A DNA stretch of 63,366 nucleotides, filler included, from Globobulimina sp. (Eukaryota), in assembly GCA_003354225.1 (NCBI GenBank). It is 38 parts of 38 records of this genome, joined end to end, with 100 filler letters (N's around TTAATTAATTAA, not from the genome) between each part and the next. Parts side by side here need not be neighbours in the genome. Positions count along the whole stretch, not along the records: positions 11,701 to 13,271 come from PIVH01014680.1; 37 more parts are not named here. One strand, written 5' to 3'. Within the stretch, counting starts at the first letter, position 1; each line of letters begins with the position of its first letter. Under the pieces are notes generated by a model. That model saw nothing but the letters and a program-made list of their open reading frames with translations. It did no database searches and was not told where the DNA came from. Below, piece by piece: positions 153 through 60,028 of the stretch. Both the position numbers and the translations under genes were made by a program.

Positions 153-749
153 ATGACATCAGTTTTTGGTTTTGTGGCAGTGATAGTATTTATATTTTTA
201 AACAATGATTGCGTGGAAGGATATGATTGTATTGTTATTGAGGATGATATTCCATCGCCATTTACAGATAATCATTGCATTCAAAAAGTGGAGAAATTGT
301 TGTTAAAAGACAGGGAATTTATTTTAGAAATTGCATCACCGAATGAACAATTACTCCGAGAAATTAATAAAATTATAAATAGAAATAGTTACAACGGTGT
401 TTTTACGAATGAAGGTACAATGCAACGTACATTTGGATCATTCATACACGAAACAACAAAACAAGGCATCCCAACGACTGTCACCTCCGCATTGGCTTAT
501 TGTGCTTGGAATATTGTTGATAATTTTGGTAAAGATAAAATGTTTAATTTGTATGAGTGGATAAAAGATATATCTGTTTGTGGCAAATCGTTCAATTGGA
601 AGGAAATGATGACTCACTCTGTAATCTGGGGCACTGCGTCGGGCGTTGTCAGTGGCGGTGTGAAGGCATACAAAGAAATTAAAATTGTAAAATGGACATA
701 TTCAACCTTTAAACCACCAAAAACTACTGTATTCAAAAAAGATATTTGA
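153..749 (+). CDS. Hypothetical protein with N-terminal signal/TM segment
   Basis: 198-aa ATG ORF with hydrophobic N-terminus; no recognised domain. Confidence 0.5.
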   Translation: MTSVFGFVAVIVFIFLNNDCVEGYDCIVIEDDIPSPFTDNHCIQKVEKLLLKDREFILEIASPNEQLLREINKIINRNSYNGVFTNEGTMQRTFGSFIHETTKQGIPTTVTSALAYCAWNIVDNFGKDKMFNLYEWIKDISVCGKSFNWKEMMTHSVIWGTASGVVSGGVKAYKEIKIVKWTYSTFKPPKTTVFKKDI

Positions 750-1428
750 TTGATCTCATTTTTTTTAATTTATTATTATTTATTTATTGTGTTGAATGCA
801 GTATATTTACATCATACTTTTACTAAAAAGACCGAACGGAGTGGTTAATTACAACCGATTGGGTACAAAAAGTACAAATCAAAAATGAATATTCTGTGCA
901 TCGGAGATCTACAAAAACCTATCGTTATGGCGAGGTTTATCCAATTTGTTGGCAGTTAAGAAAATATAAAAAATCAACATAAGAAATATAAACAACAATT
1001 GATGCTCGACAATGATGAATTATCGCGGATCAACGGCTCCATTTACTTCATTGAAATCTAATTATTCCGTTATGTTTTAAACGGAGCGGTGATAACAAAA
1101 GATGAGAAGTCGAGTTTTAAGGATCCAGTCAAAGATTATAATAAGTTATATTTTAATAGTTTAATTAATTTCCCATGAACATAAACATATTTTTAGTTTC
1201 ATTCATTGGCAAATCATTTCCCCTTTAAATAGAGAGAGATTTTTTTTAATGTTTATAAGATATTGAGTACGTCGATCGGAAAGGGACAACTCCATTACCA
1301 CTGATTACATTGCACCTTGACCCAGATAAATACATTGCAGTCAGAACTATTGACCCAACCAGGCTAACCACCACAAAGTCCACAATGAACATTTTGTCAA
1401 AACCTACTTCAATTAACTTAAGTCAGTC

Positions 1429-1572
1429 ATGAAGATCATTTTATTGATATTGTGGATCACTTGCACAACAACTTTATCTCAATCAACAACAAGCGAGGAT
1501 ATTCAAACAGCAACTACTGTCATTGAACAATTGCGTTTTGATTTAATTGCAGCATTCGACGCCTCTGGCAAA
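1429..1572 (+). CDS. Secreted protein, 5' fragment
   Basis: MKIILLILWITCTTTLS signal-peptide-like start; truncated by contig end. Confidence 0.4.
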
Positions 1573-1672
1573 NNNNNNNNNNNNNNNNNNNNNNNNNNNN
1601 NNNNNNNNNNNNNNNNTTAATTAATTAANNNNNNNNNNNNNNNNNNNNNNNNNNNNNNNNNNNNNNNNNNNN
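1573..1672. other. Artificial contig spacer (N-run + TTAATTAATTAA + N-run); first of 37
   Basis: The same 100-nt linker with stops in all six frames recurs every ~1670 nt. Confidence 0.99.
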
Positions 1673-2567
1673 TGATCAGTTTATTTCAATCTGAAGACCC
1701 GCGAGAAAGGGATTACTTAAAAACTATATTGCATCGCATATATGGCAAATTCATGTCGTTTCGCTCATTTTTGCGCCGTGCCATTAATAACGTCTTCTAT
1801 CAAGTTATTTATGTCTCGCAGCGACACAACGGATTGGCTGAATTGCTTGAGATATTAGGTATGTATTCGCAAAATCGCATGTAATTGTAACTGCAATGCA
1901 GTATAATCTATGATATATAGGGAGTATAATAAATGGGTTTGCAACGCCATTAAAAGACGAACATCAACGCTTTTTACGGAATGTGTTGATCCCATTGCAT
2001 AAAGTCGAGACCTTATCGCAATATCACGCACAATTGGCGTACTGTGTGGTGCAATTCATAGAGAAAGACCCGCGTTTATCCTCCTTAATCATTGGCGGAT
2101 TGCTTAAATTCTGGCCCATTATCTCTTGCAGTAAGGAGTTATTATACTTGTCCGAGTTGGAAGAAGTACTCGAAATGACGGAACAGCCCCAATTTGAGAA
2201 GCTAATCATCCCCGTATTTAAGCGCATTGCGGCCTGTATTTGTTCGCCACATTTTCAAGTGGCAGAAAGAGCGCTTTTCTTATGGAATAATGATGTCATT
2301 GCCGCTTTTATGAGCGATCATAGGCCTATAATATTACCATTGTTGTATCCGGCGTTACATCTCAATTTAGAGCGGCATTGGAATAATACGGTGACGCAGT
2401 TGACTACGCATATTATGCAACAATTTATGGATATGGATGAGAAACTATTTAAATCTGTAGAGTTGAAATTCAATCAAGAACATAAACCCAAAGAAAAAGC
2501 CAGAAGAAGGTTGGATAAATGGCAGAAAATCAAACTAATATCGCAACAAACTTACTTTCCTATATAA
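1673..2567 (+). CDS. PPP2R5: PP2A regulatory subunit B' (B56), 3' part; intron 1859-1920
   Basis: [51 protein letters not shown]; removing a 62-nt GT-AG intron restores the frame. Confidence 0.93.
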
Positions 2568-3008
2568 CATATATATTTTCTATTTTTTATTTTTGTTTTT
2601 TGCTCTTTGTCTTGCAATGTTTTTGTGTTGTCAGTGTTTTGTAAATATATATGAAAAAAGCTCAAAAGAATTAACGTGTTTTAATCATTTCCTATCTTTT
2701 TTTTTTATTTTTTTTTTCAACCATTTCATATATTTTGCGTTGATTTAATTTTATAAAAAATATTCAAATATCCCACACTGTTGTTTGCTGTCTGGAATTT
2801 TTTTTTCGATATTTTTAAGTTTTATTTTTTTTCCCTTCTTGCCTTCTATATTTTTATCCATATTTGTATCCATTTTTTTTTGTCTGTTTGGCTTTACTGT
2901 GCGACTAAAGAAATAAACTCATTGAATCAGCAATTTTTGTGCATTATTGTGAACAAAATCCGACAATTTTTGCTTGTGACATGAAATAACTGGCTGATAC
3001 AGTGCTGC

Positions 3009-3100
3009 TATAAATGTGTTTTCGTTGTGCAAGGATACAACTCCTCAATTATATAATCAGAATGTTTTAATAATCCTTGCACATCGAGTTAACATTTATA
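3009..3100. repeat. Imperfect 28-bp inverted repeat (hairpin)
   Basis: tataaatgt..tcg.tgtgcaaggat (3009-3036) pairs with atccttgcaca.cga..acatttata (3073-3100). Confidence 0.75.
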
Positions 3101-3344
3101 TTTTGAAAAACACGCTCAATTTGAATATTTATCATTGATAAGGTGTTTGAAAAAAAAAATTATACAACATTCCAACAATACAGAGGAAAAAAAAAAACAA
3201 AAAAGAAATCCATGAGTTTATACTGATTTATTCATCATTGTTTTNNNNNNNNNNNNNNNNNNNNNNNNNNNNNNNNNNNNNNNNNNNNTTAATTAATTAA
3301 NNNNNNNNNNNNNNNNNNNNNNNNNNNNNNNNNNNNNNNNNNNN

Positions 3345-4916
3345 CGGAAACATTACTATGCAATTTGGTATAGTATCTAATAAGCATCATGGGAAGACAG
3401 ATGAAGATATTGATGCAAACAATTCATGGGTTTGTAGCCATAGAGGTAGTGTACGGATTGATGGTAAAGTTTACAACGAGACAAAAGGACATAGAGTTAT
3501 TGAGGGTGACACAATCACATTGACATTAGACATGAATAAAGGACAATTACTGTCCTCTAAAAATGATGACACCAAGGTGTTAGTGCAGGATATTAAAAAA
3601 AGCGATGATATCAAATATAGATTTGCATTATCAATGTTTTATCCTGATATTTCATTGACTGTAAAGTGGAATACTTTAAAAATATACAAACAACGGACAA
3701 ACAAACTACAACAACAATTGGAACAATGTCAAAATAAAATAATTAGTTTACAAAAATCAAATTATAATTTACATTCAGTGTTAAACAGTTATATGAATGA
3801 CGAGAAAGAGCAGAATTGGAAGGAAGAAAAAAATGATTTAGATCAAGACAATGAAATATTTGCCAAACATAATAACTTTATGTCTGAATGGAATACGACA
3901 ACGAAGCAAATTATTGGAATATTACATTGTTCAGAAGATGAAAAACATGATATATTATCAGGTGAAACATTGTATAATGAATATATAAAAAGTGTGGCAT
4001 TGATCAATGTTCAAACCCAACGATTAGAAAACGTGTCAACTAACAATCATATCTTAGAATTATTAAAAAAACAACAAACTTTAACTGTTAAGCCATTAGA
4101 ATTAATATTACAAATAAATATTAAATTCATTTTATTTTTATAGAATATTCAGAACTCATTAAATGAAGCAATAAATATTGACCAACATTCATTGGGAGAC
4201 ATTTCAAAACAATACGATACCGTTCAAAATAAAAGAAAAGGATCACAGCAAAAATTGACAAAATTATTCACCGAATGTAATGATCTGATTCAAAATGAAA
4301 ATAATTTATTTATTTCAATGAAACGAAAGGAGTTAATATTAAAAAAAAAACAAGCTCAATGTTCAAAATATAAAGCATCGTCTGGTTGTTGCAGATCATT
4401 AATAAACGCATATAGTGATTTTACAAAGACAAATAAAGTAAATATTGAAAAAGTAAAAATATATTTAAAAACAAGATGGAAATCGTTTGAACAACAATGG
4501 CATTTATGGACATCATCAGATATTATGGCATGGTTTAAATATAAGACAAAAGGAAAAGACTTAGTAAATACGGATTGGATGCAAATTGAGAAAGAATTAT
4601 CAAGGCAGAATTTTAAATGTTCAGCATTGGACTCAGTGGAACAAAATGATTTATATATGTTTGGATTTACAAATTATGAAATTAGGAAATATTTATCTCA
4701 GCAAATTCATGTTTTGGTAACGAAGTATCCGGCAAAGAACGGCAATGAAAACATGGCTGAGAATGTGAATAATGATTCAGGAACAATCACACCATTAAAA
4801 TATTTATGTCCAATCACAAAAAGTATTATGGATGATCCAGTCGTTGCGTTTGATTGTATGACTTATGAAAGATCCGCAATTGCAGAATATTTAAAAGAGC
4901 ATAATAAGTCACCAAC
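3345..4916 (+). CDS. SPRY-like + coiled coil + SAM-like + U-box protein (putative E3 ligase), partial; intron 4087-4143
   Basis: EGDTITLTLDMNKGQL (SPRY); WTSSDIMAWF..NDLYMFGF (SAM-like); YLCPITKSIMDDPVVAFDCMTYERSAI (U-box); a 57-nt intron joins two same-frame ORFs. Confidence 0.75.
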
Positions 4917-5456
4917 NNNNNNNNNNNNNNNNNNNNNNNNNNNNNNNNNNNNNNNNNNNNTTAATTAATTAANNNNNNNNNNNNNNNNNNNNNNNNNNNN
5001 NNNNNNNNNNNNNNNNCGATTAATTGTAAGTTATTAAATCTTGTTAAATATAAAAGTATTATATTGTATAATAGATAATTATTTAGTATAGTAATTTTGT
5101 CTTTGGTAAATTTAGAAAATTTTAGTATTTTATAAAATGTTATTTTTGTTATAAATTCTATTTTTTCCTTATTGTCTTTTATGTTGTCGGTCAAGTAGGA
5201 ATAGACAACTACGATATAACAAAAGTGAATGTCGTTTATTTATTTTAGGTATTGGTGATCATTGGTTCGATTGCTTCCCATCGGATCGTAATCAAAAGTA
5301 ATTTAATTAATTAAAAACACTATCTTTGCCTAAGGTATCCTCAGGACGAGCATGGAATGCGATGGCGACCGGCTCGATCTGATTAAGGAATACTAAGAAA
5401 GCAAAATTTAATTTTTTTCTAATTATTAATGATTATTGTCTGGTTTTATTTTTGAA

Positions 5457-6587
5457 ATGTCTAAACGACAACGGTTTAGGGCAGAAGAAGATACCCCTCA
5501 AAAGGTGGTACCACCTCGGTTGTTAGCCCCTAGATTACCTTCTATTGCTATGCCAGGACCAGATGTAGCAAGTACTTCGGCAACGACAAGTGGACCACGA
5601 TTTACTGGTTTGGACTTTATTCAACAATTTCGACAGACAACTGGACCCCCGTCGGCAATGGCGATTACGAGTCAAAGTCAAGCAGGTGTATTACAGACGG
5701 GTCAGATTGCGCAAATCCCAGAGCGTGCTCCTATTGTTTTGTCAACACATGTACCAGTACCTGACCCTGCATTACATAGTATACAACCTCAATTGCAACC
5801 TATGGACACACAAGAAAACATACAGACACAAACACAAGAAGAGGACCCTATGACGTCACAAGCATCAACTAAGTTGGCAGATGCAATTAAACTTATTCAC
5901 TTTCAGAGAAAAGCTGTGAAATCGGCAGGTCGAGTCAACCCATTTGCAGTGGATAACAGTTTGGATGCCATACTACGACAAACGGAGATATCGAAGGAGA
6001 AAATTACGCTGATACGGGCAGTTGACATAATCGAACAGATTTTAGTTAATCATAAATTTGTTGAATTACGAACAATTATTCTAGAAGTACCTTTTACACT
6101 TCGATCGAAGGTGGCGGCGAGATTTGGCTGGAGAATGGAACATGGTCAAATAATATTACCAACAGGCGACGAATTACTGCAACAAGCAAAAGATGTGCAG
6201 GTACCGATGGATCAAGAGTTAGTGTATGTATTGACAGAAGAACAGAAAATCAATTTGGTTAAAGAATGGCAGATGCAAGCCCGCAACAACAATGGCTGGT
6301 GGTTTGATAAGTTTAAATATTTCTTTCAGAAAGTGGCACCTCCTTTACTAATAGACAGTATCTGTGAATTTCTGATTTGTCATCGTGATTTACAGTTATT
6401 GGCTAGATATGTACCCGCTACTTTTCTGAACGGAATATTACCACAGTCCCATCCAAACTATATTGTATCTCGTAGCTTTACTATGTATTCAGGACAGGAT
6501 GCCGAAGGCGAGGAACCGTCAAGTCATGACCCGGCCGGTAATTCCATCAAAGGATTAAAAATAGGCTACGATCGAATGGCACATCAT
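5457..6587 (+). CDS. Hypothetical intronless protein, possibly ORF1/Gag-like of a mobile element; partial
   Basis: Long ORF with P/Q/T-rich N-terminus, higher GC than host genes, no introns; no recognised motif. Confidence 0.45.
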
Positions 6588-6691
6588 NNNNNNNNNNNNN
6601 NNNNNNNNNNNNNNNNNNNNNNNNNNNNNNNTTAATTAATTAANNNNNNNNNNNNNNNNNNNNNNNNNNNNNNNNNNNNNNNNNNNNTTTT

Positions 6692-7579
6692 TCATGTAAA
6701 AGGTTGATATGGTGAATGTTTCTCAGATGGTACATATTCACCGCGTTGTTCAACAATTTCAATTATTCCAGCTCCCTTAACCCAACTGTTTCCACCAAAA
6801 TCATCAAAAAACCCCATAACAATTTGTAAATATCCAGTGGAACCGCTGTATTTTACCAAATTACTGATTGGTAATTCATATCTTTGTATGTTTGGATTGG
6901 TTAAATTCGTTATAAAACATTCTAATTTCACCAAATTTAGTGCTAACTCCACTTCATCATTATCCTTAAAAATATCATCAGTATGACCGGATACAATTGA
7001 TTTACGATCATTTCTTCCAAATTTATTGTAATGAAAATATCCATTTTTCCAAATAATTGCTGATCGCAAACCATATACATTCTGCAATAACGTATTCCAT
7101 TCTGTATAGTCATTCGCGCAAATACCAATACCTATATTTCCAGAAATCATTTTAAATTTAAATTTATAAATCATACATGCGTCTAAACCATCATATTTTA
7201 TTCGTGGTCCAAATAGCACAGAACATTGCGTTTTTAATAATTGATGACAGAGTAAACCATCTTTGTAAATTCCTACTTTTTTCTCATTGCCATATCGAAA
7301 TTTAAACGCTGGGACAGAATAACTTGTAATTAAATATATTAATATTCCTGCGATGCTATGGTTTTTAAATAATTTTGCATTTCGCGCCCAATGATCAATG
7401 ACTAATTCATGTTGAATTGACTGCGCATATGGTTTTGACATATTTTCGTTCCATTGATATGATGCAAAATAATTGTTTAATAAGTCTGTTGCTGTTTTAA
7501 TTGATTGTTTCATTTGTTTATTTTCCTGACCACGGAACAACTCTTTATGAAGAATATGTGAAGATGAAGAAGTTGACAT
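6692..7579 (-). CDS. SPRY-like domain protein with N-terminal box-like motif
   Basis: NIGIGIC..FKDNDEVELALNL beta-sandwich pattern; ELVIDHWAR..ILIYLITSY motif. Confidence 0.55.
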   Translation of the reverse strand: MSTSSSSHILHKELFRGQENKQMKQSIKTATDLLNNYFASYQWNENMSKPYAQSIQHELVIDHWARNAKLFKNHSIAGILIYLITSYSVPAFKFRYGNEKKVGIYKDGLLCHQLLKTQCSVLFGPRIKYDGLDACMIYKFKFKMISGNIGIGICANDYTEWNTLLQNVYGLRSAIIWKNGYFHYNKFGRNDRKSIVSGHTDDIFKDNDEVELALNLVKLECFITNLTNPNIQRYELPISNLVKYSGSTGYLQIVMGFFDDFGGNSWVKGAGIIEIVEQRGEYVPSEKHSPYQPFT

Positions 7580-10241: not shown

Positions 10242-10480
10242 GTTATCCAATTGACTCGTGCTTACTAACTTTTTTCTAAGTACTAATACTTAAATTTTGA
10301 TTAATTAAAAGTACTCATTCCACTCATCCCTTGACCTGATTATAGAATTTATAAATCATTTGAAAAATAGTCATCCACATGCAACAAATAAGAAAAATGA
10401 GCAGCTAGCTCAATTGGTAGAGCATTGGTTTCAATGAATTACAAACCAAATGGATGTAGATTCGAATCCTACGGTGATAA
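10242..10480 (+). repeat. Dispersed repeat family A (tRNA-bearing), copy 1
   Basis: Matches the reverse complement of 53453-53703 (e.g. ttaattaaaagtactcatt..actcatcccttgacctga and the tRNA-like body). Confidence 0.85.
10399..10480 (+). ncRNA. tRNA-like element/pseudo-tRNA (putative anticodon CAA, 8-nt insert in anticodon loop)
   Basis: A box TAGCTCAATTGGTAGAGC; T arm GTAGA-TTCGAAT-CCTAC; anticodon stem TTGGT/ACCAA; poor acceptor stem. Confidence 0.7.
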
Positions 10481-11700: not shown

Positions 11701-13226
11701 CATTCCAAGCGGGATCTCAATTATATATCTATCTCTATATTCAACACAGTATTGGGTCCAATACCGTGCAGCACACGACAAAGAATCAAAGTCGCGTCCT
11801 CCCAAGGAAGACCACTTCCTGTACCCCGCGGTGGCACCAGCAGCGTCCAAGCATCCAACTGGAACTGGAACTGGGACGACAAATATCAATCCAACTATCC
11901 AACACCATCAAACCAAAGAAGACATCAATTGGATTCCCAGCAATAATATTAAAATCAGGCATGGTGTATAAAAAAGGCGAAGGTGTAATGACCAACACAT
12001 ATAAACAACGCCTATTCGAGCTAACAATAAACGGCGAATTAAGATATTATGAAATCAAGTCCAATGGTAATAAAATAAAAAAAGATGAAATCATACTAAC
12101 ACCGTCCGTAAAAATAGAGAAACGGTCAGGTGGCAGACGCCGCGATGCCAAATTTATCATTCACATCAACAAAAACAAAAAATGGTACTTATGGTGCAAT
12201 AATCGACCAAATAACAGCCATATTCACAGAAAATCGCCGGCTTCCACCATCTATAAATATTATCCAACTTCGCCCAAATCGAAAACGAATTTAATCTCAT
12301 CACCAAACTACACAACAACATTATTTTTATCCCCTTCCAAAACAGCATTATTTTCTCCCAATATAAACATGTCAAACTCCTCTGGCTATACCTCATTAAG
12401 CTCGATCTCCACGAACTTATCCACAGCGTCAAACTGCTCCGCTTCATTGCTATCGCCCAACACAAAGATATTAATCCCACCGAAACTCATCAAAAGTATG
12501 ACCTCCTCTGTCCATGACAATGTGTATGATGATCGACACAAAAATGGCAAGAAACAGGCGCAAGAATGGTGCGACATTTTGAACAATTTTATCCAAAATG
12601 TGGAGCCTGATAATCACACAAAACATAACCATGATACTCTCAAATCGCGATCAAGTATGTTAGCGTTGTCAGCGTTGAATATGTTCAAATGTAACGTCTG
12701 TAATGTCCAGCGAGCAAATACAGCATAAAGTGTTGTTGCTGGACATTAATGGGTTACATTTGAATGTGTTTAAGAGTCATATCCATTGGCATTGAAAAGT
12801 GAGGATTGTGACGATGAGAAAATCACTGTTGAATGGACTATAAAAGAATGTTATTTGATGCTGAAATGCCATCGCGTCTATAAAAGGATGTATTTCATAT
12901 TGAGTATAAATGGGAAATTGGATTATTATACAAATGATACAGTCAAAGATAAGAAAGGATGCATTGATATAATAAATCAGTGTATCGGCGTTGAGAAAAG
13001 AAGAGGATCACAAAAACGCGATTGCAAATTTATAATACATGCACGAAATAATAGTTACTATTTTTGGTGTAAAGACGATGAAAAATTGAGTTTTGAATGG
13101 TACAATTTGTTGAGAAGGATAATTTTTGATAAAATGAAGAATTTAAATCATTATTTAGAGATCGCACATGCAAAATCGTTAAAATTTAAATCGGATTCTG
13201 ATGATAGAAAACACAAAGATTATTAA
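11701..13226 (+). CDS. Two-PH-domain protein, 5' partial; intron 12655-12774
   Basis: SGMVYKKG..YKQRLFEL..LRYY and YKRMYFIL..LDYY..KKGCIDI..EWYNLL; splicing GTATGT..AAG joins both ORFs in frame. Confidence 0.8.
12655..12774 (+). other. 120-nt intron containing a ~99-nt stem-loop (12675-12773)
   Basis: 21-bp stem with G-U pairs, an internal loop, then a further ~13+ bp stem; ends at the 3' AG. Confidence 0.8.
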
Positions 13227-13516
13227 TGTTTATTTATGTTTTTATAGTTTCATTGTTGTAAAAATGGTCAANNNNNNNNNNNNNNNNNNNNNNNNNNNNN
13301 NNNNNNNNNNNNNNNTTAATTAATTAANNNNNNNNNNNNNNNNNNNNNNNNNNNNNNNNNNNNNNNNNNNNGTCTATATGCTTTCAAAGTAGTAATGGAT
13401 GACACAAACAATACTTCAGATGTAATCGATAGAGAAGAATATATCGTTTAGTAAAAGCTCTAGCAGAACTTGCCGGTTGTGTTTTAAAAATCCTTTCAAA
13501 AATTCTTCCTTCCACC

Positions 13517-21726: not shown

Positions 21727-23296
21727 CATCGCCTATCACTTCTTTAATGCTGCTCAAACTACCAAGAAACGCATCACTTTTTTCCTTTTCCTTTATAACC
21801 TCCGCATTATAAATATCAATAAACTGTTGGCCACACTTTGCATACATACTAAAATAACTGTTGGCCCAACTAAAGAATTTCCGCGTAAATTTTGTATCCT
21901 TATCCACATTGAAACTTTCATGCATTAAGCCAGTGCCGCCTGTATTACTTAATAACATGTGCAACAATTCATACTTTTCCTGTTCATTATCACTTGTAAA
22001 TCCTTGTGTAATTAATGCAAGTGGCCATATATTATTATTTGGTGTATGTGGTGATCCGATACCGGCCGCATGTGCACCGACAAAATAATATGGATTAGAT
22101 CCACTTAACAACCATTTACGTGTATTATTATAGATCGTTGCGTTATATTTATGACTAATCATTGGTATTGATAGCAAACTGGGGATATTTGCATCATCCA
22201 TCAAATTATAGTTACCGTTTCCATCCACTTCATAACAATAAATATCACCAAAGCCGACAATATTCACCACCCCAAATTGATGAATTCCATTATAAATTTC
22301 TTGTTGTAATTGTGTGGAGACAATCTGCATTGTATTATTGTGCCAGATTTGAGTTGCAAAATATTTCACAAACTGCAATATCTGATAAATAAAGAAGTTA
22401 TCTGCAATGTGGTAGGGATATTTACACAAATCGTCAGAGGGCCTATGACTGCTCCATACCATGCCGGTGTAGCTCACATTTGGTAAATTCAATTTTATTC
22501 CATGTGTCACTGTCTTATATCCACTGAAAATCCGCACAGAAACATATGTTTTTGCAATGTGGGTATCAGATTTTTTTATTTATCTTTTTTTTTTGACGAA
22601 AACATAGGTTTCTGTACTAATGCATACATACCTTAATGTATCATGATATTGTTCTGTTTGCCACATATTTATTAATTCAATAACTGCTAATTTGACAAGA
22701 TTGTCGTGCTGGAAAAATACATTTCGATCTTTTGTTTGATAATAATATGCATATAATAATTTGATAAAATATGCGCCAGAATCTATTTCGTCATCGCGTG
22801 TGGCCACAATGGAGGTTTTAATTAATATTTGCAATTTGGAATCATAGCAATAAGCTTCTTTTCTAAATGCATTCGCATAGACATCGGCTAGAATAAATTG
22901 TGCCTGCTTCAGGACGACACCACGTATCATATATTGAATGTATTTATATTTCTTAATTAAGTCAAAATATGGCCATATTTGTTCAGTGCTGTCGCGAATC
23001 CACATATCTTGGATGTCGCCAGTGATTACAAAGGTGGTATTGTCGATATATGAATAATATATTGTTCGTTTCAGAGCATTCCAAAATGTTATATTGCATA
23101 TTTTGGACATTTGCTTCTCGTCGATGTTGTATTCTGATTGCAATCGGAGTTTATTCCATGAATGTTTTATGTATATTTTGTGCCATGGAGATATCATTAA
23201 ATCTGACTGTGAGTTGTTGACATTCGAATTCTCAGTGGATCTGGTGCTGATTGGTGGCAATTGTATGTTTTGATGCATATGGTTGGTGTGGTTGAC
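21727..23296 (-). CDS. Glycoside hydrolase family 125 (exo-alpha-1,6-mannosidase type); intron 22524-22631
   Basis: ITGDIQDMWIRDS, RPSDD, YEVDG, MDDANIPSLLS, GIGSPHT, MHESF, FSWANS. Confidence 0.88.
22524..22631 (-). other. 108-nt intron with stem-loop (22535-22616)
   Basis: GTATGT..TTCAG restores the frame; UACAGAAACCUAUGUUUUCGUCAA pairs with UUGCAAAAACAUAUGUUUCUGUG. Confidence 0.75.
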
Positions 23297-45304: not shown

Positions 45305-46676
45305 ATGGAACATGCAAGATATTCACAGATCCCATATGCATATGAAAAATATTATAATCAAAAGAGGCCATCATTCAAGAATTTCCCTCCAAACAACAAA
45401 TATCATTTTGATTTAGTAAAATACAAAACGGAATATCATAACATAAAACCATCACACTTAAAGGCATTCGAACTGAGGCGTCGGTATCCAAATCATCCTA
45501 CAATAAATGATGTGAAACGGAGCTTGTTGTATTTTTGCGGCTGCTGCTTGTTGTGTTTGGTACTAGTTTTAATTTATTATACCTTTAATTTATATCAAAC
45601 CAACATTTTATTAAAAACTGAATTGAAATCCTTCAAAACTGAATTGAAATTCAAAGCGACTGAACTAACCCAACAACAATCTAAAACCGAAGAATATGAA
45701 TCAATAATAAATGCATTGAAAATCGATCATGAATCACAGAAAACAGAACTAACACAAAAGATGACTCGGCAAAATGCAGAATGGAAATCAAAATATACTG
45801 AACAAACTCACAAAAATCAGTTAGAGCTCGAAAATATGCAAAATGAAATCATTTTGAGTCAACATATCACGCAACAAATGCACCGATTGAATAATTTATA
45901 TAATGATTTAACAGATTTATATGAAACTACTAAGCAAGATATTGCATTATATAACCATGACATCAATGAAATAAATTCGGAATATAATCATATTTATCAA
46001 TATCATCCGGATCAACTTTCCGCAGAATCCAATATATATAGCATCGTATTGATCGGAGAAACGGGTCACCATAAATCTACACTTGGTAATAGATTATGTG
46101 GTGATATCTCAGAGTATGCCGAATCAACAGAATTTAATACATCCACTGCATCAGCTTCCTGCACGAAGAATTTCACAAAACGAATTGTTAAAAATCTATA
46201 TTCGAAGACGATTTCGGTGGTAGACACGCCAGGCTTCCATGACACAGACGATGCGGATCGTATCAACGCAGAAAACTTGGTGTCATATTTGCGTGGTAGT
46301 GGCGGTATTAATGCATTTGTTTGGGTTACAAAGGAAACAAAATTTACTACATATTACGAAAATAGTTTGGAAAAAGTACAGAATTTATTAGGTATATACA
46401 TGCACTGTCAATACAAATACATTGTGAAAGAGCAGGAGGACCTTTGTCACTTAAAGAGGATACAAAAAATCCTCTAACTACATGTACACTTTCATAATGC
46501 CATGTTTTGACAGTATTTAATTTAGCAATATCTTTAGGTAAAGGTTTTTGGAAACATGTGATATTTGTTCGAAGTATGGTGAATAATGGAACGCCAGCGA
46601 TGAGGGATAAAGATATTTACGCCTCGCAATTAAGGAACTCTGTTCGTTTGAGATTTGGGCTGGATGACAGCTATAA
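45305..46676 (+). CDS. TM + coiled coil + AIG1-like GTPase; intron 46392-46537; 3' truncated
   Basis: LIGETGHHKSTLGNRLCGD, VVDTPGFHD, GGINAF, LG|KGFWKHVIFV; paralog of 18385-19201. Confidence 0.8.
46392..46537 (+). other. 146-nt intron with branched stem-loop (46404-46514)
   Basis: actgtcaa/ttgacagt, cattgtgaaag/ctttcataatg, inner agaggat/atcctct. Confidence 0.75.
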
Positions 46677-55965: not shown

Positions 55966-56194
55966 CAATAATATTGATTTTTACTAACAGTAGTGGACAC
56001 TCTCACCATTTTTGGTACCATTATAAATCTATGCATGTATCCCACTGTACTGTACAGTACAGTACAGTTTTTATTATTATTATACCAAAATTAATTCTGC
56101 TAATAATAGTAATAAATATTAAAAATGCTCTGTTTTTGTTTTCCAATGAATTTTTAAATAATTGGTTTGGTACCTAATATAGTCGGGAAACTTA

Positions 56195-56400
56195 CGATAT
56201 ATATGGTACTTGATCCATATATGGACCCGGTACCATATATGGTACCCTTTCAAGCCAAGTGGAACCATATATGGTATCAGTACCATACATGGTAGAGGTA
56301 CCATACATGGACCTGGTACCATATATGGTACCCTTTCAAATTCACTCTCAAGGGGTACCATATATGGATCAAGTACCATATCTATCGTAAGTTCCCTGAC
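56195..56400. repeat. Minisatellite of palindromic GGTACCATATATGGTACC-type units
   Basis: Repeated self-complementary 18-mer with variants. Confidence 0.85.
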
Positions 56401-56866
56401 TGTACATGATATGCACAATTATTGAACCTATTCTGTAAACCGTACAGTACATACCTGGGAACACACCAGGCACAGCCTGGCCAATATATGTGTAAATGGC
56501 AGCCAACAAAAGCAGATGAGCGAGCGCAAACCAAATATTCATAGGGAACATAATCACTATATTAACAATAGCCTGAAATATTAAATACATATTGTTATAG
56601 TCTTAAATATATGTATTGCAAATCACCCCAATCAATGAGCTCCAACGATTACAAAACAACGAATACCAAGACTGACGTTGGTTTATGATTNNNNNNNNNN
56701 NNNNNNNNNNNNNNNNNNNNNNNNNNNNNNNNNNTTAATTAATTAANNNNNNNNNNNNNNNNNNNNNNNNNNNNNNNNNNNNNNNNNNNNAGCCAATGTT
56801 AGTAGAAAAGGCCAAAAACCCTAACAAGTACAGACATGGCAAGCCCAAGCGCTGCTAAGATGCGGG

Positions 56867-59651: not shown

Positions 59652-60028
59652 TTTTTGTGGTGCATTTTAATATTAATTTTGTACATATCTCGTGATAACT
59701 GGCCATTGAGCTGTGGCTCTTTTCTGCGTTTTGTTCCCCTCACATTACTGCCACTGTAAGCATAACATCAATATGTACCATTAAGATTTTCCATAAATAT
59801 TAAGAAATTTCAATATGTTGATTCTGTCTATGAATTTATATACAAACTTCACTCGCCGTTTGTCCAAAGTAAAATAATCAAATATTTATGGAAAATCTTA
59901 ATGGTACATATTGATGTTATGCTTAAAGTGACAGTAATGAGAGGGGAACAAAACGCAGCAAAGAGCCACAGCTCAATTGCCAGTTATCACGAGATATGGA
60001 CAAAATAAATATTAAAATCCACCAAAAA
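59652..60028. mobile_element. Foldback element with ~150-bp imperfect inverted repeats
   Basis: 59652-59801 is the reverse complement of 59881-60028 with scattered mismatches; ~79-bp spacer. Confidence 0.85.

What the first reader, a model, noticed from the sequence alone, without database searches (positions are those of the whole stretch)
12655..12774. 5'-tailed mirtron-like hairpin intron in a PH-domain gene
12675-12773 forms 21 contiguous bp (four of them G-U), an internal loop, then ~13 bp plus bulged pairs. It ends one base before the end of the intron. Arm differences are mostly G-U-compatible on the transcribed strand, which suggests selection on RNA rather than DNA symmetry. Size and 3'-coterminal geometry match 5'-tailed mirtrons.
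Basis: partly seen in the sequence, partly recalled or inferred. Interest (0 to 1): 0.7.

Follow-up and report, generated by a model that had tools for sequence, protein, structure and literature searches.

The report
Hairpin-filled intron in a foraminiferan gene
A real, cleanly spliced 120-base intron in a foraminiferan signalling-type gene folds into an unusually strong hairpin shaped like a microRNA precursor, but hairpin introns recur in this genome and nothing yet shows that this one makes a small RNA.

Summary
12655-12774 is a GT-AG intron: contigs of three studies join exactly 12654 to 12775, and a fourth run keeps it. The hairpin 12675-12773 is real (z -7.6; antisense -5.8) and single-copy. 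The host is a tandem-PH gene whose only homologue found is from Bolivina. A paralogue lacks the intron, and there is no target-site duplication. Dicers and PIWI-like Argonautes are present.

The mirtron reading is unproven. In 0.93 Mb of this genome, 10 of 120 predicted long introns carry strong inverted repeats (shuffles: 0 of 120), with no clear sense-strand G-U bias (34:23) or 3' anchoring. This intron is the most stable, but its 6:0 G-U count is only p 0.02-0.06 before selection and its unpaired tail is also G/U-rich. No targets stand out, and no small-RNA data were listed.

Best reading: an intron lengthened by local inverted duplication (0.52). Dicer-processed hairpin about 0.25; strict mirtron about 0.12. 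The scan noted fold-back introns elsewhere in this genome before.

The parts
11703..12654 (+). Exon 1, coding frame open from the contig start (true start not fixed; candidate ATG at 11961). First PH domain, split by a Ser/Pro/Thr-rich insert before its C-terminal helix.
   Evidence: PF00169, E 4.5e-4, below the curated cut-off; aligns to Bolivina P0001; covered by joined contigs from 11899
12655..12774 (+). Spliceosomal GT-AG intron, 120 nt, phase 1, three in-frame stops, no target-site duplication
   Evidence: joint 12654>12775 in X1, X3, X5, with both=0
12655..12674 (+). 20-nt 5' tail with the donor GTATGT (the commonest donor among predicted introns); G/T-rich (14 of 20); contains a 9-nt tandem duplication
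12675..12695 (+). 5' arm of the outer 21-bp stem (would be the 5p strand; begins with U)
12696..12700 (+). 5' side of the 5x4 internal loop
12701..12713 (+). 5' arm of the inner 13-bp stem
12714..12735 (+). Bulged apical stem and 8-nt loop
12736..12748 (+). 3' arm of the inner stem
12749..12752 (+). 3' side of the internal loop. A12749 is unpaired (0.97), 25 nt before the intron end, in a TTAAT motif: a candidate branch adenosine (inference; the branch consensus is recalled and was not enriched by position in my intron set).
12753..12773 (+). 3' arm of the outer stem, covering the acceptor region; the last G of the intron (12774) is free
12775..13226 (+). Exon 2, second PH domain, stop at 13224-13226
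   Evidence: PF15413, E 2.1e-7, above cut-off

Best explanation
An ordinary U2-type intron that was lengthened by a local inverted duplication, one of the fold-back introns that recur in this genome. Shown: it is spliced at GT-AG, holds a single-copy inverted repeat, and has no target-site duplication. Inferred: a short intron of usual size (20-nt donor part plus 45-nt G/T-rich acceptor part, about 65 nt, against a mode of 55-65 nt) gained an inverted copy of its 3' half by template switching or repair. Later transitions left G-U pairs because the intron's sense strand is G/T-rich. The spliceosome tolerates the stem, perhaps because a candidate branch A stays unpaired in the internal loop. The excised intron is most likely degraded; any dicing would be incidental.
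For: Inverted repeats scoring 36 or more occur in 10 of 120 predicted introns of 85-330 nt and in 0 of 120 shuffles. Those 10 show G-T:A-C of 34:23 (p 0.18). Long introns fold no better in sense than antisense (43 of 90, Wilcoxon p 0.53). Repeats end within 6 nt of the acceptor in 3 of 10 against 1.8 expected. The antisense strand of this intron also folds at z -5.8. The unpaired tail is 14 of 20 G/T. No second copy of either arm and both=0 at the joint.
Against: This intron is more extreme than any predicted intron tested: z -7.0 and -0.41 kcal/mol per nt, against a minimum of -4.6 and -0.34 among 90 introns of 85-200 nt. It has no A-C mismatch, while unselected decay should give some. All-one-way repeats number 3 of 116 against 1.1 expected. 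A wider scan of 23 intron-labelled repeats gave a mild sense G-T excess, 92:61 (p 0.015 against 50:50, near the 56% expected from composition). 0 of the other 24 repeat-bearing introns end within 1 nt of the acceptor (1.1 expected). A paralogue lacks the intron, so a short ancestral intron is not shown. My gene finder miscalled this very intron, so the background boundaries are rough and atypical introns may be missed.
Confidence: 0.52

Rival explanations
1. The hairpin is a Dicer substrate that yields a defined small RNA. It could be a 5'-tailed mirtron (spliced, debranched, 20-nt tail trimmed, diced from the acceptor end so that the 21-bp basal stem is the duplex; about 0.12). Or it could be a splicing-independent intronic microRNA or hairpin siRNA cut by a plant-like Dicer, as in Chlamydomonas and Ectocarpus (about 0.13).
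For: The 21-bp stem is flush with the acceptor, begins with U, ends at an internal loop one duplex-length up, and has a 1-3 nt 3' overhang. It is single copy, has 6:0 G-U and is the most stable intron in the sample. The genome has two helicase plus twin-RNase-III Dicer genes, a third twin-RNase-III fragment, and 3 PAZ-Piwi proteins among 11 Piwi matches. MicroRNAs are reported in another rhizarian, Plasmodiophora (PMC13547706, abstract and passages).
Against: The three PAZ-Piwi proteins match PIWI better than AGO structures (E 6e-44 against 1e-23 for the best one), and Pfam finds no PAZ domain in either Dicer. In Ectocarpus none of the intronic microRNAs were mirtrons (PMC4513859, passage). 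In Chlamydomonas splicing was not required for the intronic microRNA tested (PMC4817775, passage). No exonic complement with 2 or fewer mismatches was seen among the hits inspected, and there is no excess of exonic complements over shuffles (5p 13 against 7.6, 8% of shuffles reach it; 3p 8 against 8.3). All Rfam microRNA hits lie far below their gathering scores. The arms lack the G-rich 5p and C-rich 3p pattern of mammalian mirtrons (PMC4556696, PMC5953923, passages).
Confidence: 0.25
2. A recently gained intron made by a small foldback or MITE-like element (introner type) whose other copies are lost, diverged or missing from this fragmented assembly.
For: Paralogue C21996 is uninterrupted across the same linker (RSKS-P motif). 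GC 0.375 is at the 90th percentile of predicted introns. Strand-symmetric MITE-like repeats occur in the sample. X4 holds a 37-nt contig matching the 3' arm with 5 differences in 35, origin unknown.
Against: No target-site duplication (both=0). The repeat is not terminal at the 5' end (20-nt offset). No second copy in 70 Mb at up to 2-3 mismatches over 22 nt or by BLAST at E 10. The 20 of 40 weak 21-mer hits that were fetched show no extended likeness or comparable hairpin. The intronless paralogue could be a loss or a retrocopy.
Confidence: 0.12
3. A selected cis-acting RNA structure that tunes splicing: it masks the acceptor, presents the branch A in the internal loop, or brings the splice sites together as in Giardia and Trichomonas long introns.
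For: The stem holds in pre-mRNA context, and A12749 stays unpaired (0.97) 25 nt before the intron end. G-U only, on the transcribed strand. Folded long introns are described in diplomonads and parabasalids (PMC6679479, passages).
Against: In those species folding leaves 25-45 nt of single-stranded span, and splice elements were modelled as unpaired. Here only about 21 nt stay free and the acceptor tract is buried. No retained or alternative form appears in three runs, though contigs drop rare variants. No branch consensus was enriched by position in my set.
Confidence: 0.11

Closest known systems
5'-tailed mirtrons of mammals (Wen et al. 2015, PMC4556696; passages read)
   Same: Unstructured 5' tail, then a hairpin at the intron's 3' end; short intron (100-200 nt bin); low folding energy; 5' U on the 5p arm; long hairpins are allowed in mirtrons generally.
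   Different: No diced reads shown. The arms are A/U-rich without the G-rich 5p and C-rich 3p pattern. The host has one intron in the part seen, while mirtron hosts are intron-rich. The Argonautes here look PIWI-like.
Intron-derived microRNAs of Chlamydomonas (PMC4817775) and Ectocarpus (PMC4513859); passages read
   Same: Long single-copy foldback on the host strand inside an intron of a protist gene; Dicer with helicase present.
   Different: Those are shown by small-RNA reads and are not mirtrons (the Chlamydomonas case is splicing-independent). Here the duplex would abut the acceptor, and no reads exist.
Folded long introns of Giardia, Spironucleus and Trichomonas (Hudson et al. 2019, PMC6679479; passages read)
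   Same: Short plain introns coexist with longer introns that form stem-loops.
   Different: Here the stem swallows the acceptor tract and leaves about 21 free nt. Only about 8% of predicted long introns carry a strong repeat, and there is no sense-strand folding advantage.
Introners and introner-like elements (fungal ILEs, PMC4457414, search listing only; TIR/TSD introners, recalled)
   Same: Hairpin-rich intron that is absent from a paralogue.
   Different: Single copy, no target-site duplication, and the repeat is not terminal at the 5' end.

Membership tests
5'-tailed mirtron | Lies in a real spliced intron | tested here: met
   Joint 12654>12775 in 3 of 4 runs, three studies
5'-tailed mirtron | Hairpin 3' end abuts the splice acceptor, with an unstructured 5' tail | tested here: met
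   Stem ends at 12773, 20-nt tail with only a weak hairpin, overhang 1-3 nt
5'-tailed mirtron | Precise diced small-RNA duplex, 3p read ending at the acceptor | not testable with these tools
   No small-RNA library listed; all runs are kept as contigs
5'-tailed mirtron | Biogenesis needs splicing and debranching | not testable with these tools
   Needs mutants. The DBR1 family search found nothing and rang in no control genome, so it is uninformative.
5'-tailed mirtron | Dicer and an Argonaute in the genome | tested here: met
   Two Dicer genes (C172, C375) and 11 Piwi-domain matches. Caveats: no PAZ found in the Dicers; the three PAZ-Piwi proteins are PIWI-like; one more is weakly AGO-like (E 8e-5); two gave no match.
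5'-tailed mirtron | Mammalian sequence bias (G-rich 5p, C-rich 3p) | tested here: not met
   The 3' arm is G/U-rich with one C in 21 nt. This is a mammalian tendency, not a universal criterion.
microRNA locus (any) | Arm conservation with compensatory change in relatives | not testable with these tools
   Related runs X1 and X3 (about 94-95% alike in exons) hold only the joined form. The metagenome scan found no orthologue, only one 28% PH hit.
microRNA locus (any) | Complementary target sites above background | tested here: inconclusive
   5p arm: 22 other genome matches at up to 3 mismatches against 5 for the control. In the 0.93-Mb sample, 13 exonic complements against 7.6 +/- 3.2 for shuffles; 3p arm at background.
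TIR/TSD introner or MITE | Multiple copies in the genome | tested here: not met
   the assembly is fragmented (48,370 contigs)
TIR/TSD introner or MITE | Target-site duplication and terminal repeats at both element ends | tested here: not met
   both=0 at the joint; repeat offset 20 nt from the donor
Known Rfam RNA (microRNA, snoRNA, riboswitch) | Reaches a family's gathering score | tested here: not met
   Best of 14 matches scores 27 bits against a cut-off of 101

The most novel reading that the evidence does not exclude
The intron is a true splicing-dependent 5'-tailed mirtron. It would be processed by a Dicer with no recognisable PAZ domain and loaded on a PIWI-like Argonaute, showing mirtron biogenesis in a foraminiferan, and the genome's many fold-back introns would be the raw material from which such microRNAs arise. 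I found no such report in my searches, which cover open-licence papers only.
Probability: 0.12. Interest if true: 0.75.

Novelty: new member of a known kind. Interest (0 to 1): 0.33.

Why it matters
As a fold-back intron it adds one splice-verified example to a pattern already noted in this genome and known from other protists, so its value is modest. It is, however, the best candidate in the 1.3% of the genome I screened for a hairpin-derived small RNA in Foraminifera, a group for which my searches listed no small-RNA study. It gives a precise prediction (a duplex from 12675-12695 and 12753-12774) that one small-RNA library would settle. If confirmed as splicing-dependent, it would extend mirtrons to Rhizaria.

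Tried and rejected
Sequencing runs: no RNA holder on record was listed; this is no evidence on expression. The lack of intron cover in X1, X3 and X5 is explained by the joined contigs and says nothing about small RNAs.

Alternative junctions: the acceptor two bases downstream and the internal donors proposed by my gene finder are contradicted.

Other RNA classes: H/ACA or C/D snoRNA, riboswitch and known microRNA families were rejected; there is no Rfam match at cut-off and no boxes by eye (box motifs recalled).

Target-site duplication: AAG or AGT duplications were considered; neither keeps the frame, and the joint has both=0.

Orthologues with DNA: the metagenome scan gave only a distant PH protein. 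Paralogue C47806 begins just after the junction and C2474 ends before it, so both are uninformative.

DBR1 search: uninformative.

Branch-point consensus: not recovered from the predicted introns.

The strongly strand-asymmetric hairpin in L042 is a tandem repeat.

One short intron scored z -17.7. I take it as an artefact of a tiny shuffle spread and did not inspect it.

The genome sample stopped at 0.93 Mb, mostly contigs of 5.7-6.4 kb, so it is small and biased to long contigs. In one search, 22 of 175 repeats were dropped as tandem or low-complexity before counting.

No tRNA was called in the window. No supplements were read.

Full report
Setting. The window is a string of 38 unrelated contigs of about 1.57 kb joined by spacers. 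The finding lies in contig C14680 (window 11701-13271) of a 70.2-Mb assembly in 48,370 contigs. The gene encodes two PH domains (PF00169 below its cut-off in exon 1, PF15413 above it in exon 2). The only hit among 75 candidates in a search of longer proteins is a 401-aa tandem-PH protein, 48% identical, from the foraminiferan Bolivina argentea. The organism is therefore most likely a foraminiferan.

The intron is real. The frame carries three stops between 12726 and 12773. Contigs from runs X1, X3 and X5 (three studies; RNA status guessed or not on record) join 12654 to 12775, skipping 120 nt with GT..AG ends. Run X4 carries the intron unspliced in a near-identical contig. No letters fit on both sides of the joint, so there is no target-site duplication, and no other junction at this place was listed.

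The hairpin is real. It has 21 contiguous pairs with 4 G-U, a 5x4 loop, 13 pairs with 1 G-U, and a bulged apex. MFE is -49.2, z -7.64, 0 of 200 shuffles. The antisense strand also folds well (z -5.78), so this is an inverted repeat in DNA as well. The end pairs fray, leaving a 1-3 nt 3' overhang. The stem persists with flanking exons, and A12749, 25 nt before the intron end, stays unpaired. The outer 14 nt of the two arms are also an 86% direct repeat of a near-palindrome, and the tail holds a 9-nt tandem duplication, which points to local copying.

Copy number and origin. BLAST at E 10 finds only the locus and its own reverse match. Two 22-nt patterns from the 3' arm find no other site at up to 3 and 2 mismatches. 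Two 21-nt patterns at 3 mismatches give 22 and 18 other sites against controls of 5 and 13. I fetched 20 of those 40; none extends or forms a comparable hairpin. Paralogue C21996 (60% identical over the second PH domain) runs uninterrupted across the same linker, so the intron was gained here or lost there. Two other paralogues break off beside the site.

Background in this genome. I screened 219 sequences, 930,537 bases, with a self-trained gene finder that gave 353 well-flanked introns, modal length 55-65 nt. The finder miscalled the intron under study, so its boundaries are rough. Strong inverted repeats (strand-neutral score 36 or more) occur in 10 of 120 introns of 85-330 nt and in 0 of 120 shuffles; this intron scores 56, above all but one. 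Their G-T:A-C count is 34:23 (p 0.18). A second scan, of 23 intron-labelled repeats, gave 92:61 (p 0.015 against 50:50), close to the 56% expected from intron composition. Sense and antisense z-scores do not differ over 90 introns of 85-200 nt (43 of 90, p 0.53), and none reaches this intron's z or energy per base. Repeats end within 6 nt of the acceptor in 3 of 10 against 1.8 expected, and within 1 nt in 0 of 24 against 1.1. Fold-back introns are thus a recurring class without a sharp 3' anchor or strong strand bias, and this intron is its extreme member in the sample. Earlier scan notes reported the same class on other contigs.

The G-U argument. In a strand-neutral alignment the arms differ by 6 G-T, 0 A-C and 2 other. 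The chance of 6 of 6 is 0.016 at 50:50, 0.03-0.06 at background shares, and 0.36 at the composition of the intron's own unpaired tail. Three of 116 repeats with five or more such mismatches are all one way, against 1.1 expected. G-T on the sense strand also corresponds to A>G and C>T changes on the non-template strand, the direction of transcription-linked mutation bias (recalled, not tested). The pattern is suggestive of RNA-level selection but does not show it.

Machinery. The genome has two Dicer genes (DEAD helicase, helicase C, twin RNase III; one with a Dicer dimerisation domain), a third twin-RNase-III fragment, and 11 Piwi-domain matches, three with PAZ. Pfam finds no PAZ in the Dicers. 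The three PAZ-Piwi proteins match PIWI structures better than AGO; one other is weakly AGO-like and two gave no match. Silencing machinery is present, but that is common in eukaryotes and does not imply microRNAs. Target tests were inconclusive or flat.

Literature. Mirtrons are defined by diced duplexes at splice junctions (PMC4556696, passages; PMC5953923, passages). Plasmodiophora, a rhizarian, has microRNAs made by a Drosha-like enzyme; that paper's main text does not mention mirtrons or foraminifera (PMC13547706, abstract and passages). In Ectocarpus no intronic microRNA was a mirtron, and purely computational candidates failed read tests (PMC4513859, passages). The Chlamydomonas intronic microRNA tested was splicing-independent (PMC4817775, passages). 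Few protists pass strict microRNA criteria (PMC11014262, passages). Folded long introns are described in Giardia, Spironucleus and Trichomonas (PMC6679479, passages). Searches listed no paper on foraminiferan small RNAs or hairpin introns among their top rows; subscription papers are not covered.

Verdict. The feature is real and the intron is verified. The likeliest mechanism is inflation of an intron by local inverted duplication, tolerated by the spliceosome (0.52). A Dicer-derived small RNA is a live alternative (0.25, about half of it the strict mirtron), ahead of an orphan foldback insertion (0.12) or a splicing-control structure (0.11). It looks like a 5'-tailed mirtron in shape, but it cannot be filed as one, since the defining reads could not be tested. 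Interest 0.33.

Noticed in passing
L028 (G000:C172) 205-7126 and L029 (G000:C375) 579-5711; L023; L010, L011, L013: Two full Dicer genes without a recognisable PAZ domain, a third twin-RNase-III fragment, and an expanded Piwi-domain family (11 matches) whose PAZ-bearing members look PIWI-like rather than AGO-like.
   Followed up: partly
window 59654-60028: 148-nt inverted repeat, 94% complementary, 79-nt spacer, running to the contig end; MITE-like or an assembly fold-back.
   Followed up: no
window 56178-56404: 47-nt terminal inverted repeats enclosing an array of about 18-nt palindromic units; the strongest fold in the window.
   Followed up: no
window 22524-22631 (-) and 46392-46537 (+): Two more predicted introns (108 and 146 nt) with inverted repeats above shuffle level; boundaries not verified.
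   Followed up: partly
L084 minus strand (predicted 121-nt intron) and L183 plus strand (predicted 116-nt intron): Hairpins ending 4 nt before the predicted acceptor after 48- and 30-nt tails: similar geometry, but A/T-rich; the L084 one folds better antisense.
   Followed up: partly
L153 1440-1585, L126 2407-2519, L041 3530-3636, L140 379-481: Long non-coding hairpins of precursor-like shape in the genome sample, some more stable on one strand; further candidates for a small-RNA screen.
   Followed up: no
window 12730-12764: A 37-nt contig in run X4 matches the 3' arm with 5 differences; it may be another copy, an allele, another organism or chance.
   Followed up: no
L004 (C19393) and L008 (C29882): Rearranged, broken fragments of the PH paralogue fused to a shared repeat, in two near-copies.
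   Followed up: no
window 10398-10475: Looks tRNA-like by eye but ARAGORN calls nothing; possibly a tRNA-derived repeat.
   Followed up: partly
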